A DNA stretch of 64,000 nt from a virus. Lineage: Duplodnaviria; Caudoviricetes. Both the position numbers and the translations under genes were made by a program. The DNA is taken from positions 1 through 64,000 of the IMG/VR virus record IMGVR_UViG_3300021958_011004; one strand, given 5' to 3'. Below are positions 6,751 to 21,033 of the stretch, in pieces. The notes beneath the pieces were generated by a model. That model was not told the origin of the DNA. It worked only from the letters and a program-made list of their open reading frames with translations, and ran no database searches. How positions within the stretch are numbered: the first letter of the stretch is position 1; each line of letters starts with the position of its first letter.

Positions 6751-6837
6751 AGGAGATGAAGGGATTCGAACCCTTGGTAAGTTTAACCCTACGACGGTTT
6801 TCAAAACCGTTACCTTCAACCGCTCGGTCACATCTCC
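6751..6837 (-). tRNA. tRNA-Ser(UGA)
   Basis: GGAGATG/CATCTCC acceptor; loop TT-TGA-AA; long variable arm. Confidence 0.9.
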
Positions 6838-6841
6838 AAAA

Positions 6842-7167
6842 TGGTGCCTCGGGCCGGACTCGAACCGGCAAGGACATAAGTCCGTCAGATTTTCTTACCC
6901 GCTACAATTTTCATTGCCAACATTATGTTGTTTGTGGTCTGGACTTTCTCTTCATCTTCAGCATTACCTGTTAAGAGCCAGCCGTTAAGTCTCTACACTT
7001 TCCTTAATTTTAAGGCTTAGCTCGGGATTGCCATCAGCGCTATCTGTTAAGGTTTCCCCGAATTTGACTGGATTCACTCATAAGATTTCTCTTAAGGTGC
7101 TCAATTTATAATAGCTTTTACCTATTATCTAGAAGTCTGATGTGTTTACCAATTTCACCACCAAGGC
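6842..7167 (-). tRNA. tRNA-Leu(UAA), intron-containing (5' exon 7133-7167, 3' exon 6842-6893, CCA encoded)
   Basis: Joined exons give GCCTTGG/CCGAGGC acceptor, TCAGA-CTTAAAA-TCTGA anticodon arm and a long variable arm. Confidence 0.92.
6894..7132 (-). mobile_element. group I intron (IC3, trnL-like), 239 nt, no internal ORF
   Basis: Inserted after U34; IGS TTGAG; P3 CCAGTC/GGCTGG; P AAATTCGGGGAA; Q AATCCCGAGC; R GTAGAGACT; S AAGAGAAAGTCC; terminal G. Confidence 0.9.
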
Positions 7168-10492: not shown

Positions 10493-10507
10493 GATCCTTC
10501 AAACAAT

Positions 10508-10533
10508 AAAAAACCAGCACGAAGCTGGTTTTT
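10508..10533. terminator. intrinsic terminator (possibly bidirectional)
   Basis: AAAAAACCAGC-ACGAA-GCTGGTTTTT. Confidence 0.7.
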
Positions 10534-10554
10534 AAAGCTTAACATAATATCAAA

Positions 10555-11007
10555 CTAACGTCTGATTCTTCTTTGTTTTCTTCTTCTTAGCGACTCAGAC
10601 ATATAATCCATCGGAAAAATCAGTTTCTGACATTTAGCAACAACACTCCTACCGAGCTTAGTCGCATAATCATCACCTAAAGTCTCGGCATCCGAAAGCA
10701 AGTCTTTGTTAGGATCGAATATATATTCCTCGCCAGTAATTTTGTTTGTAAGTTCTACATCACCATCATCATCAATTGAAACTATAATCGCAATAGTATC
10801 TTCAGTTTCGTAATCATATACCAAAATGTTTTCAGCATTTTCCTGTCCATCTTGAATATTTATCGTTTCTAATCCCTGATCTTTACAATCTTCGATTATT
10901 GCGGATGCAATTTGATATGAATAAGAATTAACACGAGCGTGTGTATAACTACTATCATACATCTCTTTTAAAATCATTTTTCTTAATTGTTTTCTTGATA
11001 ATTTCAT
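10555..11007 (-). CDS. hypothetical protein with MKLSRKQLRKMILKE leader
   Basis: Member of the leader family. Confidence 0.8.
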   Translation of the reverse strand: MKLSRKQLRKMILKEMYDSSYTHARVNSYSYQIASAIIEDCKDQGLETINIQDGQENAENILVYDYETEDTIAIIVSIDDDGDVELTNKITGEEYIFDPNKDLLSDAETLGDDYATKLGRSVVAKCQKLIFPMDYMSESLRRRKQRRIRR

Positions 11008-11087
11008 CTTTTAATTCTCCACAAAAGCTTTTGTATAGTTTTAATTATAATCTATGAAAATAAAGTTCTATCTCTGCAATAAAAAAA

Positions 11088-11125
11088 TGGACCCTCAAGG
11101 ACTTGAACCTTGGACCTGCCGATTA
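11088..11125 (-). pseudogene. isolated 3' half of a tRNA (anticodon loop TAA to discriminator)
   Basis: TAA-TCGGC-AGGTC-CAAGG-TTCAAGT-CCTTG-AGGGTCC-A; acceptor strand complements GGACCCT at 11905-11911. Confidence 0.75.
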
Positions 11126-11767
11126 GTATAGGTGATTGTGTATCTCATAAGTCCCTTTTTTAATTTTGTTGATTTCATTTTTTTTAATGACAATTAAGTT
11201 TTCTACAACTTCCCACTTGGCCAAATCTTTTTCTGTCTGATATCCTTTAACTTCAACATATCGATCAAACTCAGGAAGATAAAAGTCAGGATAATAACTT
11301 CTTTCTTTTCCTTCGTAAATATACGAAAATGATTCTACCTTATTAGTCCATTTAATTCCTTTAGAGTCTAAATATTTTGCAGTTAACAGTTCCCATGTGC
11401 CTCTAAGACTAAATCCTTTATGTTCGTATATTTTGGTCCTTCCGCCCTTATTTCCATGGCGATATGACTCAGGATTGTTTTTTGCAACTTCAGACATAAT
11501 TTTACTATGATTTTCTTTTCTATCTTTAGACCAAGTTTTCCCTTTGTTGCTTTTTGACAATTTCTCTCTTGTTTCTTTTGAAACTTTAAAGTTTGGATTT
11601 TTTGTAAATTGATTATTTGTTTTCTTCCCGTACATGGGATTATTTTTTCCTTTTCTTCTGGTAGCTGGATGAGCAACAGAATTTGGGTTTAATTTGCAGT
11701 ACCCTTTATGACTGCTAAGTGCATTAATCGTTTTATATTCTTTAGAACAAAATTGACAGATTTCCAT
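11123..11767 (-). CDS. homing-endonuclease-like protein (Zn-finger + NUMOD3 + PD-(D/E)XK nuclease)
   Basis: CQFC..H..YC; NPMYGKK and SKETREKLSKSNKGK; WELLTAKYLD...YYPDFYL...VEVKG; GGAG SD before M36. Confidence 0.85.
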   Translation of the reverse strand: MEICQFCSKEYKTINALSSHKGYCKLNPNSVAHPATRRKGKNNPMYGKKTNNQFTKNPNFKVSKETREKLSKSNKGKTWSKDRKENHSKIMSEVAKNNPESYRHGNKGGRTKIYEHKGFSLRGTWELLTAKYLDSKGIKWTNKVESFSYIYEGKERSYYPDFYLPEFDRYVEVKGYQTEKDLAKWEVVENLIVIKKNEINKIKKGTYEIHNHLY

Positions 11768-11847
11768 GTGTAACTCCTGATATATCTTATATAAGTATAT
11801 ACCATTTAAGTTAACTGCTCTAACCTTTAGAAAATAAATTGAAAGAG

Positions 11848-11911
11848 TAGACAGGGTGGGGATTGAACCCACGACCCCGGAGTTATGAGCTCCTCACTGA
11901 GCTAAGGGTCC
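11848..11911 (-). pseudogene. chimeric/degenerate CAU tRNA (5' start of one tRNA fused to the anticodon and T arms of another)
   Basis: GGACCCTTAGCTCAGTGA-GGAG-CTCATAA-CTCC-GGGGTC-GTGGG-TTCAATC-CCCAC-CCTGTCT-A; acceptor mismatched, D-arm truncated. Confidence 0.7.
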
Positions 11912-11920
11912 AAAAAAGAA

Positions 11921-11994
<74 letters not shown>

Positions 11995-12038
11995 ATAAGT
12001 TTTTTGTTTTTAAAAGAACGTTTTATTTAATTGTTTAT

Positions 12039-12067
12039 ATTATACCAAACAAAACAATGTATTACAT
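12039..12067 (-). promoter_or_regulatory. promoter ATGTAA-N17-TATAAT
   Basis: Consensus match upstream of tRNA-Arg. Confidence 0.65.
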
Positions 12068-12070
12068 GTT

Positions 12071-12514
12071 TTATTTTAAAAGTTTCCCATAAAGATACCA
12101 TAAATTGTCTCGTATCTTTGTAGGTTTGCTAACCTCAAGAAGATTTCTTTTGTCACAAATTGCTGAAAGATAGCTAGCTGATCGTCGCTCAACTTTTTCT
12201 TTTGTATTTGCTGTTACAGAAAAAGATAAGTTGTCACAACATCTTTCAAACCATATATCTGTTGATTTCCACAAAGACCAGTCCTCTGAAAGTTTGAAGT
12301 ATTTATCGGGTCTTTCATGAACTTTAAGAGCGATTAATATATTAATAAACTTCTCTAACTCTTTACCCTTTGAAACAGGTTCTTTTGTTATCCAACACTC
12401 ACCAGAACTGCTTCTAACCTCAATCTTGGCTTTGTGCCATCCATTACTATGGACACGATAACAGTATTGTTGAATACTGCCTGACAACGTGTAGGGCTGT
12501 AATTCTAAGTTCAT
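12071..12514 (-). CDS. hypothetical protein
   Basis: ORF track; ATGA coupling. Confidence 0.65.
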   Translation of the reverse strand: MNLELQPYTLSGSIQQYCYRVHSNGWHKAKIEVRSSSGECWITKEPVSKGKELEKFINILIALKVHERPDKYFKLSEDWSLWKSTDIWFERCCDNLSFSVTANTKEKVERRSASYLSAICDKRNLLEVSKPTKIRDNLWYLYGKLLK

Positions 12515-20291: not shown

Positions 20292-20680
20292 TGGTGGAGC
20301 CGAGGGGATTTGCACCCCTGTCCGCAGCAGTCTTAGTTTGAGTCATCCACAAGCTTGTCTGATTATTTCTCTAACCAGAAAGATAGCCACCTTTTTTCAC
20401 ATCCAACTCTTGTGTGGCCTTAGAGTTCCACCTGCTACCAACAGGGTAACCATTTCGGATTCGGCCGAGTCCGGAGACTCCCTTATAACTTTATCGTCTC
20501 ATCCATCTGACTAACCTCTTGTTTTACACCGGAAGAGATACCGGCGTGATTAAGCAGCTAAAGCTACAGAATCATAGTGTGCGTTATTGTTGGCACTTAT
20601 AAAATTTGAACTGTTAAGGACGTATCTTCCCTGCTTGCACTCTCCCCTTGATTCTACCCCGTCGAATCTAAATCGGCCCC
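20292..20680 (-). ncRNA. ssrA: tmRNA; tag (A)ANNNAHYDSVALAA at 20550-20594
   Basis: GGGGCCG/CGGCTCC-ACCA tRNA-like domain with G3-U70; GATTCGAC 5' motif; ATAAGT-GCC resume context; tag ends LAA-stop. Confidence 0.95.
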
Positions 20681-20709
20681 TTAAATTGTTATTAATTATA
20701 TTATAAAAA

Positions 20710-21033
20710 CTAATGTTCATGATTACATGAATGAACTTCTTTTGCTTTCTTCCCTGTAACTTTTATCCATGCTGCCCACAAGAAGGGAACAACAAGCCAA
20801 TGTAAACAAAATAGAATACTAGCCGGTATCAAAGCAAAAAATCCTGGATGGACAACCTTACCTAAATAGCCAAACATTAAAGGAAACAATAAGTCCTCAA
20901 TAATCTCCCATCCAATTATTATCACAACAAGCGCCAAGCCATGTTCTCTGAAAGTGGCTTTTATACTATTTAGACTTATGTGTTCTAGTTTGTGTGACAA
21001 CCGTTTTTTAATCCACTGAAACATTATTTTCAC
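20710..21033 (-). CDS. membrane protein, hypothetical
   Basis: Two or three hydrophobic segments. Confidence 0.7.
   Translation of the reverse strand: MKIMFQWIKKRLSHKLEHISLNSIKATFREHGLALVVIIIGWEIIEDLLFPLMFGYLGKVVHPGFFALIPASILFCLHWLVVPFLWAAWIKVTGKKAKEVHSCNHEH

What the first reader, a model, noticed from the sequence alone, without database searches (positions are those of the whole stretch)
11088..11911. A CAU tRNA split open around a second tRNA half and an endonuclease gene
Seen, in transcription order: (1) the 5' end of tRNA A (GGACCCTTAGCTCAG); (2) fused at GAGC to the anticodon arm (CAT), T arm and acceptor 3' strand of a different tRNA B; (3) a NUMOD3/PD-(D/E)XK ORF; (4) the 3' half of tRNA A, whose loop TAA is the ORF's stop codon. 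The outer ends pair perfectly (GGACCCT/AGGGTCC-A), so a transcript could fold into a tRNA-like domain enclosing an mRNA, a tmRNA-like topology. Alternatives (inference): a scar of homing-driven gene conversion, or a decayed attL/attR pair with crossover in the anticodon loop.
Basis: partly seen in the sequence, partly recalled or inferred. Interest (0 to 1): 0.7.

Follow-up and report, generated by a model that had tools for sequence, protein, structure and literature searches.

The report
Homing nuclease cassette splitting phage tRNA-Ile
A selfish DNA-cutting-enzyme gene has landed in the anticodon of this large phage's isoleucine (CAU) tRNA gene and split it; the spare tRNA it carried is now damaged too, and the locus is a decayed copy of a widespread cassette type I did not find described, not a tmRNA-like RNA.

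Summary
On the minus strand, directly after tRNA-Arg(UCU), lie in order:
- the first 16 nt of a CAU tRNA "A";
- positions about 27-76 of a second CAU tRNA "B";
- an 80-nt leader;
- a 214-aa zinc-finger/NUMOD3/PD-(D/E)XK nuclease ORF;
- positions 36-76 of A, whose T36-A37-A38 is the ORF's stop codon.

Intact A follows tRNA-Arg(UCU) in another phage contig and is of the E. coli tRNA-Ile(CAU) type. Intact B sits in front of a 69%-identical nuclease gene in other metagenome contigs.

In 91 non-identical loci of this nuclease family, a neighbouring tRNA is CAU far more often than background (37/53 downstream and 15/33 upstream, against 15/261). At least 12 loci show a CAU tRNA split inside its anticodon, often with a complete second CAU tRNA riding with the nuclease gene. 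No group I intron is present.

Best reading: this is the scar of an intron-less homing-endonuclease cassette. The window's copy is degenerate, with tRNA A broken and passenger tRNA B truncated. The tmRNA-like and att-site readings are not supported.

T4 SegB is the closest known analogue. Earlier notes of this scan reached the same "nuclease plus spare tRNA" reading on other genomes. I found no published description.

The parts
11920..11995 (-). Intact tRNA-Arg(UCU), the upstream neighbour. The pair Arg(UCU)-Ile(CAU) is the conserved slot.
   Evidence: ARAGORN. Rfam tRNA 71.8 bits. Same order Arg(TCT)-A in L010. T4 segB also lies between tRNA-Arg and tRNA-Ile (PMC2988022, Table 1).
11896..11911 (-). 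5' end (positions 1-16) of the resident tRNA A, a tRNA-Ile2(CAU)-type gene: acceptor 5' strand plus the start of the D arm.
   Evidence: 16/16 identical to intact A in L010 and L009. Positions 5-7 (CCT) tell it from B and complement AGG in the 3' half. Intact A is 82% identical over its full length to E. coli genes annotated tRNA-Ile.
11848..11895 (-). Positions about 27-76 of passenger tRNA B (CAU): anticodon arm GGAG-CUCAUAA-CUCC, T arm, acceptor 3' strand CCUGUCU and discriminator A. Its 5' acceptor strand and most of the D arm are missing.
   Evidence: Identical to the intact tRNA at L070 1154-1228 and to L068 1-59. The chimera 11848-11911 scores 22.8 bits against the 29-bit cut-off, with 3 of 7 acceptor pairs broken. 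Fold z-score is -0.64.
11804..11825 (-). Relic of the 5' half of an older target tRNA (positions about 17-38), GGTTAGAGCAGTTAACTTAAAT, kept inside the cassette leader. Its GUUAACUU (11815-11808) is predicted to pair with the Shine-Dalgarno region (11776-11768).
   Evidence: Homologous to the complete 5' half in front of the nuclease gene in L089 (GGGCCTTTAGCTCAGTTGGTTAGAGCAGTTTACTTAA) and to relics in L068, L070, L066 and IME341. Fold.
11768..11847 (-). Cassette leader: AT-rich, with a late-promoter-like TATATAAGATA inside a hairpin, and Shine-Dalgarno AGGAG at 11778-11774.
   Evidence: Sequence, fold. In relatives, TATAAATA lies 12-34 nt before the ATG in 18/84 leaders, against 0.01 expected per 70 nt. 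The SD is paired in 51/84. This design is known for T4 homing endonuclease genes (PMC2988022).
11123..11767 (-). Homing-endonuclease gene, 214 aa: CCHC zinc finger, NUMOD3 motif and a C-terminal PD-(D/E)XK nuclease domain. The stop codon TAA (11125-11123) is supplied by the tRNA anticodon loop.
   Evidence: Pfam NUMOD3 31.1 bits (cut-off 20.4), DUF7487 26.1 (cut-off 27), Phage_endo_I 22.1. T7 endonuclease I, PDB 1m0d, E=0.002. Invariant C4, C7, H20, C24, E126, D161, E172, K174 in 30 relatives. Model pLDDT 84; I-Bth0305I Z 7.8, Vsr Z 7.6. dN/dS 0.15 against L068.
11088..11125 (-). 3' half (positions 36-76) of resident tRNA A: T36-A37-A38, anticodon-stem 3' strand, variable loop, T arm, acceptor 3' strand AGGGUCC and discriminator A.
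   Evidence: 38/38 identical to intact A of L010 and L009. nhmmer profile positions 37-74.

Best explanation
The locus is the scar of a free-standing, intron-less homing-endonuclease cassette that entered this phage's tRNA-Ile2(CAU) gene inside the anticodon, between A35 and T36.

Inferred mechanism:
1. The nuclease recognises the DNA of CAU-tRNA genes around the anticodon stem-loop and cuts there.
2. The break is repaired from a cassette-bearing genome during co-infection.
3. Repair copies in the leader, the nuclease gene and a linked complete CAU tRNA (here B), which is not cut because its stem sequence differs.
4. The target's two halves are left as flanking relics, so their acceptor strands still pair.

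In this phage a further recombination within the shared TAGCTCAGT, together with a 10-nt D-arm loss, fused A(1-16) to B(27-76). Either homeologous strand invasion or a later deletion could have done this. As a result both tRNA A and passenger tRNA B are now pseudogenes, while the nuclease gene is intact.

The nuclease gene reads to the TAA of the old anticodon loop. It is probably expressed late, from a promoter inside a hairpin that hides its ribosome-binding site in read-through transcripts.

Shown: the anatomy, the intact alleles elsewhere, the family-wide association with CAU tRNAs, the breakpoints in the anticodon, the absence of an intron, and purifying selection on the ORF.

Inferred: the cleavage specificity, the homing itself, the immunity of B, the regulation, and the order of events.
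For: - Intact A follows tRNA-Arg(UCU) with no insert in L010. The window's A pieces are identical to it: 16/16 and 38/38.
- Intact B precedes a 69%-identical nuclease gene, followed by an A 3' fragment, in L069-L071. A 72% relative on a 68-kb TARA scaffold (L066) shows A' 5' half, complete CAU tRNA, leader, ORF, A' 3' half. A 91% relative (L068) shows B with its D arm, the ORF and a decayed A 3' half.
- In 91 non-identical loci, the downstream neighbour tRNA is CAU in 37/53 and the upstream neighbour in 15/33. Only 15/261 non-adjacent tRNAs are CAU.
- In 12 loci both outer halves are detected. Their acceptor strands pair 6.33/7 on average, against 4.76 for shuffled partners (0/2000 shuffles reach it). 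5' halves end at profile positions 34-36 and 3' halves start at 36-38, which is inside the anticodon.
- No group I intron is found at the locus or in 20 related loci. Rfam does find one at 6917-7120 in the same window, which serves as a positive control.
- The catalytic residues are intact, dN/dS is 0.15 and the fold is PD-(D/E)XK.
- Cultured phages carry the same designs: PhaxI and IME341, in the T4 tRNA region.
- T4/T6 SegB cuts inside tRNA genes and drives recombination in tRNA arrays (PMC2330249; PMC13096335).
Against: - No biochemical evidence exists that this nuclease cuts CAU-tRNA genes, or where. The target is inferred from association and breakpoints.
- The left junction (A16|B27 with the 10-nt D-arm loss) is unique to this metagenome-assembled record and cannot be checked with reads here.
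- The assignment of the 5' end to A rests on 3 nt plus synteny.
- B may be a tRNA-Met rather than a tRNA-Ile2 (no E. coli match), so 'replacement' of the same function is not shown for this clade.
- In some relatives no passenger tRNA is present (L107, L089, L073), and one relative sits outside any tRNA array (L072).
- The record is only about 26% of a genome, so another CAU tRNA may exist elsewhere.
Confidence: 0.85

Rival explanations
1. tmRNA-like RNA: the transcript from 11911 to 11088 folds so that the A halves form a tRNA-like domain enclosing the nuclease mRNA, and this domain has a function such as charging, ribosome entry or stability.
For: The 7-bp outer helix is perfect. It is predicted in both the minimum-free-energy and the centroid fold of the 824-nt RNA. 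Outer halves also pair in 10 of 12 related split loci.
Against: - Pairing is expected from common origin, because the halves equal an intact tRNA gene elsewhere.
- The 3:70 pair is A-U, and no CAU anticodon arm remains in the domain for MetRS or TilS/IleRS recognition (established knowledge of tRNA identity).
- The ORF has its own SD and ATG and encodes a conserved enzyme.
- Relics decay or are truncated in relatives (L068, L073, L125).
- The tmRNA models hit another place in the window, not this one.
Confidence: 0.03
2. Unrecognised intron: the insert is removed at the RNA level, or the halves are joined in trans, restoring a working tRNA.
For: The insertion is in the anticodon loop, the classical site of bacterial tRNA group I introns. 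A true group I intron sits in another tRNA of the same phage.
Against: - Removing the insert cannot restore tRNA A, since positions 17-35 are absent.
- No ribozyme core is detected even at E<=10, nor in 20 related loci.
- The ORF fills the insert up to the junction, leaving no room for a 3' intron core.
Confidence: 0.01
3. Decayed attL/attR pair of an integrase-mobilised element with its crossover in the anticodon loop.
For: tRNA genes are common integration sites, and the topology (5' part, foreign 3' part, cargo, displaced 3' part) resembles attL...attR.
Against: - The 770-nt insert has one ORF, a nuclease, and no integrase.
- The tRNA at the left end is not restored.
- The same nuclease family shows this pattern in dozens of phage tRNA arrays.
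Confidence: 0.01
4. Assembly artefact: two CAU-tRNA loci were joined wrongly in the metagenome assembly, creating the A/B chimera.
For: A and B share TAGCTCAGT, which could mislead an assembler. The exact left junction was found in no other viral contig.
Against: - The arrangement B-leader-ORF-A 3' half is seen in independent assemblies (L068, L069-L071).
- The A 5' end sits exactly where A starts after tRNA-Arg in L010.
- A mis-join at the shared repeat would not by itself produce the 10-nt D-arm loss.
Confidence: 0.05

Closest known systems
Phage T4/T6 SegB, a free-standing GIY-YIG homing endonuclease in the tRNA gene cluster (PMC2330249; PMC13096335; PMC2988022)
   Same: - An intron-less nuclease gene inside a phage tRNA array, in T4 between tRNA-Arg and tRNA-Ile, which is the same slot as here.
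- It cuts inside tRNA genes and drives inheritance and rearrangement of neighbouring tRNA genes.
- Microhomology between the tRNA 5' end and the nuclease 3' end mediates rearrangements.
- A late promoter sits inside an RBS-sequestering hairpin.
   Different: - Unrelated protein: here a zinc finger, NUMOD3 and a PD-(D/E)XK nuclease domain, with no GIY-YIG domain.
- SegB recognises the T-loop motif and sits between genes. This family is tied to CAU tRNAs and lies inside the target, leaving its two halves, often with a complete passenger tRNA.
I-Ssp6803I, a PD-(D/E)XK homing endonuclease in the group I intron of cyanobacterial tRNA-fMet(CAU) (PDB 2OST; function and location recalled from my own knowledge)
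   Same: A PD-(D/E)XK-fold homing nuclease associated with insertion in the anticodon loop of a CAU tRNA gene.
   Different: - That gene rides in a self-splicing intron that restores the tRNA. Here no intron is detectable and the tRNA is destroyed.
- Structural similarity is weak (Z 4.3) and there is no sequence match.
I-Bth0305I and the 'fractured genes' homing endonucleases (PMC3239194; PMC2677866); Aeh1 mobE splitting nrdA (recalled from my own knowledge)
   Same: Best structural match of the nuclease domain (3r3p: Foldseek prob 1.00, E 0.012; VIA Z 7.8, rmsd 2.8 over 81 residues). Free-standing nuclease genes that split a host gene into two pieces.
   Different: Those split protein genes whose function is rescued by split inteins or subunit assembly. 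Here the split gene is a tRNA, and rescue, where present, is by a whole spare gene. The catalytic motif here is the T7 endonuclease I type (PD...E-V-K), not EDxHD.
T7 endonuclease I (Pfam PF05367; PDB 1m0d, 1fzr)
   Same: Closest by sequence in the nuclease core: PDF..E.K with an upstream E (E=0.002; Pfam 22.1 bits). Cultured-phage homologues are annotated 'endonuclease I'.
   Different: T7 endo I is a junction-resolving enzyme with no zinc finger or NUMOD3 DNA-binding module and no link to tRNA genes. The Pfam score is below the family cut-off of 29.1.

Membership tests
Free-standing homing endonuclease genes of phage tRNA clusters (SegB-like lifestyle) | Nuclease ORF not embedded in a self-splicing intron or intein | tested here: met
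   No Intron_gpI match at E<=10 in 10500-12500. Rfam does find the group I intron at 6917-7120. The ORF is a stand-alone reading frame with SD and ATG.
Free-standing homing endonuclease genes of phage tRNA clusters (SegB-like lifestyle) | Presence/absence polymorphism: related genomes carry the uninterrupted target at the same place | tested here: met
   L010 has tRNA-Arg(TCT) followed after 7 nt by intact tRNA A with no insert. However, L010 is not a close relative outside the tRNA pair, and no flank homologues were found.
Free-standing homing endonuclease genes of phage tRNA clusters (SegB-like lifestyle) | Site-specific cleavage of the cassette-free allele and preferential inheritance in crosses | not testable with these tools
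   Needs enzyme assays and phage crosses. Cultured carriers exist (PhaxI, IME341).
SegB / GIY-YIG family (protein homology) | GIY-YIG catalytic domain | tested here: not met
   Pfam scan at E<=1 lists NUMOD3, DUF7487, Phage_endo_I and zinc fingers, but no GIY-YIG. The fold is PD-(D/E)XK.
DUF7487 / NUMOD3 + PD-(D/E)XK nucleases | Pfam PF24308 and PF07460 matches over the curated cut-offs | tested here: inconclusive
   NUMOD3 scores 31.1 against 20.4 (met). DUF7487 scores 26.1 against 27 (just under). Close relatives P0001-P0006 carry precomputed PF24308.
DUF7487 / NUMOD3 + PD-(D/E)XK nucleases | Intact PD-(D/E)XK catalytic residues | tested here: met
   E126, D161, E172 and K174 are invariant in 30 relatives and align with the T7 endo I core.
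tmRNA | Match to tmRNA covariance models; tRNA-like domain with G3-U70; tag reading frame without a start codon | tested here: not met
   No tmRNA hit at the locus at E<=10. The models hit 20292-20710 instead. The 3:70 pair is A-U (sequence). The ORF has SD and ATG and encodes 214 aa.
Group I intron in a tRNA anticodon loop | Ribozyme core, and exons that give a complete tRNA when the insert is removed | tested here: not met
   No RF00028 hit. Joining 11896 to 11125 lacks tRNA positions 17-35. Only the site, the anticodon loop, matches.
Integrase-mediated insertion in a tRNA gene (attL/attR) | Recombinase gene in the insert, and a direct repeat that restores the tRNA at one end | tested here: not met
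   The only ORF of 100 aa or more in the insert is the nuclease (its domains). The left tRNA is not restored (22.8 bits, below 29).

The most novel reading that the evidence does not exclude
The window holds one decayed copy of a widespread, apparently undescribed class of intron-less homing cassettes. They insert inside the anticodon of phage tRNA genes, here the CAU tRNAs. Instead of splicing out, they carry a complete, cleavage-immune spare tRNA gene, a natural 'cut-and-rescue' drive. They also use the target's own ...ACUC as the arm of the hairpin that hides their ribosome-binding site. Such cassettes would be a major engine of tRNA-gene turnover and exchange in phage tRNA arrays.
Probability: 0.55. 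Interest if true: 0.75.

Novelty: new variant of a known kind. Interest (0 to 1): 0.6.

Why it matters
Homing endonucleases are thought to survive inside genes only when an intron or intein removes them from the product. Otherwise they sit between genes. This family appears to use a third solution for RNA genes: it breaks the target tRNA gene and, in many loci, brings a whole spare one.

If confirmed, this would do four things:
- explain the tRNA fragments and pseudo-tRNAs that litter phage tRNA arrays;
- give a mechanism for horizontal spread and replacement of phage tRNA genes, which matter for codon usage and for escape from tRNA-cleaving defences (compare SegB and Septu, PMC13096335);
- add a nuclease family with a presumably long tRNA-gene target;
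- offer a natural model of cut-and-rescue gene drives.

For the window itself the consequence is modest. Two CAU tRNA genes of this phage are dead at this locus and one selfish nuclease gene is alive.

Tried and rejected
- **Rfam with permissive filters** on 10500-12500 found no intron, tmRNA or other structured-RNA family at the locus. It found only the sub-threshold tRNA match of the chimera.
- **BLAST of the 2.1-kb region** against 50,697 phage records found only tRNA-sized matches and no syntenic relative.
- **The downstream 150-aa flank protein** has no relative in IMG/VR. I therefore could not obtain a close cassette-free sister genome. The upstream 147-aa flank was not tried.
- **Exact B 3' part and exact left junction:** no hit in IMG/VR.
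- **B against E. coli genomes:** no match, so B's amino-acid identity (Met or Ile2) stays open.
- **One-ended-invasion origin.** I considered that the cassette types with a 5' fragment and a complete downstream tRNA arise by one-ended invasion alone. I gave this up as the only route once matching 3' halves were found after the passenger tRNA.
- **Overprinted 5' half.** I considered that the ORF's last 35 nt are an overprinted tRNA 5' half, as Rfam suggests for L086, L087 and L089. In the window there is no such signal.
- **Foldseek** gave no PDB match at E<=0.001. VIA-align gave only generic PD-(D/E)XK matches at Z<8.
- **Literature:** five full-text searches found SegB work but no description of this family or architecture. 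One search failed on syntax.
Full report
**Observation**

Reading the minus strand, the region after tRNA-Arg(UCU) (11995-11920) contains these pieces in order:
- 11911-11896, GGACCCTTAGCTCAGT;
- 11895-11848, GAGGAGCTCATAACTCC...CCCACCCTGTCTA;
- an 80-nt AT-rich leader with AGGAG at 11778-11774;
- an ORF from ATG 11767 to TAA 11125-11123;
- 11125-11088, TAATCGGCAGGTCCAAGGTTCAAGTCCTTGAGGGTCCA.

ARAGORN calls no tRNA in this stretch. Rfam's tRNA model gives the 64-nt piece 11911-11848 a score of 22.8 bits against a 29-bit cut-off. That alignment has a vestigial D arm and three broken acceptor pairs. The piece does not fold as a cloverleaf (z = -0.64). The window is part of a 72-kb IMG/VR virus record estimated at 26% complete, so it comes from a large phage. 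The record holds no other CAU tRNA.

**The pieces are real tRNA parts**

An exact search with the 3' half found an intact 76-nt tRNA(CAU), "A", in two other viral contigs. In L010 it follows tRNA-Arg(TCT) after 7 nt, which is the same synteny as here. The window keeps A(1-16) and A(36-76) without a single change and lacks A(17-35). A is 82% identical over its full length to E. coli genes annotated tRNA-Ile, so it is the CAU (lysidine) tRNA-Ile2 type.

An intact "B" turned up when I fetched the genomic context of closer relatives of the ORF. L070 1154-1228 is a complete tRNA(CAU) (65.6 bits) whose last 48 nt equal the window's B piece.

A and B share positions 1-4 and 8-16. The window's 5' end is A-like at positions 5-7, the very bases that complement the downstream AGG. 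Compared with B, the chimera has also lost 10 nt of the D arm.

**The ORF**

The ORF encodes 214 aa with three modules:
- a CCHC zinc finger;
- a NUMOD3 motif (31.1 bits, cut-off 20.4);
- a C-terminal nuclease domain that matches DUF7487 (26.1, cut-off 27), Phage_endo_I (22.1) and T7 endonuclease I structures (E = 0.002).

In an alignment of 30 relatives, C4, C7, H20, C24, E126, D161, E172 and K174 are invariant. The AlphaFold model (pLDDT 84) has a PD-(D/E)XK domain. Its best matches are I-Bth0305I (Z 7.8), Vsr (Z 7.6) and TnsA (Z 7.9). I-Ssp6803I scores only Z 4.3. Against its 91%-identical relative the gene shows dN/dS = 0.15 at dS = 0.30. It is a live gene.

**What the relatives show for this clade**

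- L066 (72% identical nuclease, 68-kb TARA scaffold) has this order: 5' half of an A-type tRNA, a complete different tRNA(CAU), leader, ORF, 3' half of the same A-type tRNA, then tRNA-Pro, tRNA-Lys and tRNA-Arg(UCU). Its outer acceptor strands GGGCCUU/AGGGCCC pair 7/7.
- L069-L071 (69%) have complete B, leader, ORF, an A 3' fragment identical to the window's, tRNA-Thr and tRNA-Arg(UCU). Upstream lie an A-like pseudo-tRNA with a scrambled anticodon arm and a degenerate tRNA-Thr copy.
- L068 (91%) has B with its D arm, the ORF, and an A 3' half that starts at the same T36 but is decayed, with 11 differences in 38.
- L073 (58%) has B itself split after position 33 by the ORF, with an A/B-chimeric 3' half.

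The window is therefore a derivative of "A 5' half - B - leader - ORF - A 3' half" in which A(17-35) and B(1-26) are gone.

**What the family shows**

I scanned 91 non-identical loci of relatives with ARAGORN: 55 IMG/VR, 80 metagenome and contexts from the protein collection.

- The tRNA abutting the ORF's end is CAU in 37 of 53 cases.
- The tRNA just upstream is CAU in 15 of 33.
- Only 15 of 261 other tRNAs in the same loci are CAU.
- In 13 loci the ORF overlaps the downstream tRNA by exactly 10 nt, so the conserved U8-A9-G10 serves as the stop. In two loci the overlap is 38 nt, so the stop is the anticodon-loop TAA, as in the window.

A profile of CAU tRNAs run with nhmmer then found orphan halves. 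5' halves ending ...ACTC(A) lie 33-48 nt before the ATG. 3' halves starting (T)AAT... lie either at the ORF's end (L107, L089, the window) or just after a complete CAU tRNA that follows the ORF (L125, L135, L141, L091, L149, L076).

In the 12 loci where both halves were detected:
- the acceptor strands pair 6.33/7 on average, against 4.76 ± 0.31 for shuffled partners (0 of 2000 shuffles);
- the breakpoints cluster at profile positions 34-36 and 36-38, which is inside the anticodon.

Other loci show footprints at the same spot. L151 has a 22-nt insertion in the anticodon loop. L149 has tandem duplications of the anticodon arm. L070 has a scrambled arm.

No group I intron is detected in 20 of these loci or at the window's locus. 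The same tool finds one at 6917-7120 in this window.

**Leader**

The window's leader contains GGTTAGAGCAGTTAACTTAAAT (11825-11804). This is homologous to the distal part of the complete 5' half in L089 and to relics in L068, L070, L066 and coliphage IME341. The cassette therefore carries the relic of an older target.

In many relatives the end of the 5' half (...GACUCC) pairs with the Shine-Dalgarno (GGAGUC...), with TATAAATA in the loop. TATAAATA occurs in 18 of 84 leaders against 0.01 expected per 70 nt. The SD is paired in 51 of 84. In the window, GUUAACUU (11815-11808) is predicted to pair with 11776-11768.

A late promoter inside an RBS-sequestering hairpin is the known regulatory design of T4 I-TevI/II/III, segB and Aeh1 mobE (PMC2988022). 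That it operates here is inference.

**Mechanism and history (inference)**

The nuclease most likely recognises the DNA of tRNA-Ile2-type CAU genes around the anticodon stem-loop and cuts there. Repair from a cassette-bearing genome then copies in the leader, the ORF and the linked tRNA.

The A halves in the window are still identical to the intact allele, whereas those of L068 have decayed. This argues that the invasion of this phage's A gene is recent. B's 48 nt are identical in the window, L068 and L070 although the nuclease genes are saturated at synonymous sites. This argues that B travels with the cassette and is, or was until recently, under selection as a tRNA.

The A(1-16)/B(27-76) fusion is what homeologous invasion, or a deletion through the shared TAGCTCAGT together with a small D-arm loss, would give. 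I cannot tell these apart.

**Rivals**

- *tmRNA-like reading.* The outer helix is predicted in silico. It follows from common origin, lacks tmRNA identity features, is not conserved where relics have aged, and encloses an ordinary enzyme gene. A bona fide tmRNA lies at 20292-20680.
- *Intron.* Excluded for this copy, because the exons are incomplete.
- *Integrase att sites.* No recombinase is present and no tRNA is restored.
- *Misassembly of the left junction.* This cannot be excluded without reads, but the rest of the architecture is reproduced in independent assemblies.

**Comparison with the known**

- T4 SegB is a GIY-YIG free-standing homing endonuclease lying between tRNA-Arg and tRNA-Ile. 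It recognises the T-loop motif of tRNA genes and spreads its tRNA neighbourhood (PMC2330249, PMC2988022). In T6 it drives amplification of a tRNA-Tyr/segB unit through microhomology between the tRNA 5' end and the segB 3' end (PMC13096335).
- The present family occupies the same kind of slot. In the Dhakavirus IME341 it lies in the T4 tRNA region. It is an unrelated protein, is tied to CAU tRNAs, sits inside its target and often carries a spare tRNA.
- In the Kuttervirus PhaxI the design is 5' half, hairpin leader, ORF, then a tRNA 'Met' overlapping the ORF by 10 nt. The records annotate these genes only as 'endonuclease', 'endonuclease I' or 'hypothetical protein'.
- Five full-text searches found no description of the family or the architecture.

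**Earlier notes of this scan**

After my own analysis I looked up earlier notes. Several follow-up agents had reached the same reading on other genomes: a large undescribed nuclease family inserting in phage tRNA anticodons, often with a replacement tRNA, with SegB as the closest known. These are unchecked AI notes and are not independent evidence. They agree with what I derived here for the CAU-tRNA clade.

**Verdict**

The locus itself is a degenerate relic with two dead tRNA genes and one live selfish nuclease gene. It belongs to a cassette type that is a new variant of a known kind and is worth experimental follow-up in cultured phages.

Noticed in passing
window 6917-7120 (-), next to tRNA-Ser 6751-6837: Rfam Intron_gpI match of 60.5 bits (cut-off 50). 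Used here only as a positive control.
   Followed up: partly
window 20292-20680 (-): Phage-encoded tmRNA: Rfam 85.7 bits, ARAGORN tag peptide ANNNAHYDSVALAA. The permuted-tmRNA model also scores 50.4 bits at 20550-20710.
   Followed up: no
L115 2302-2571: A permuted tmRNA (Rfam RF04321, 99.9 bits) lies right after the nuclease/tRNA cassette and tRNA-Arg(UCU) in an unrelated metagenome phage contig.
   Followed up: no
L151 978-1074; L149 2054-2134; L070 1004-1078: CAU-type tRNA genes with lesions exactly at the anticodon: a 22-nt insertion in the loop (L151), tandem duplications of the anticodon arm (L149) and a scrambled anticodon arm (L070). They look like footprints of imprecise break repair, and possibly like cleavage-resistant alleles.
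   Followed up: partly
L106 1164-1196 and 1442-1482: A CAU tRNA split by a 245-nt insert without an ORF, lying directly upstream of a nuclease gene of the family. Rfam finds no group I intron there. It may be a remnant of a deleted cassette.
   Followed up: partly
L158 (coliphage IME341, NC_055742) about 1060-1135: A complete CAU tRNA in front of the nuclease gene is not annotated in the RefSeq record. The nuclease ORF's end runs into a tRNA-Arg(UCU)-like gene that is also unannotated.
   Followed up: partly
L072 438-1091: A 62%-identical relative of the nuclease lies between protein-coding genes with no tRNA nearby. The family is therefore not confined to tRNA arrays.
   Followed up: no
L087, L101, L118, L129, L093, L086 (ORF 3' ends): A recurrent motif: anticodon arm (xxxx-CTCATAA-xxxx), then TTGAAACCG or TAGAAACCG, then a 3' half starting TAAT/TAGT. 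The result is a tRNA-like gene with a roughly 20-nt extra segment overlapping the ORF's end (Rfam 30-35 bits in L086, L087 and L089). Its meaning is unclear.
   Followed up: no
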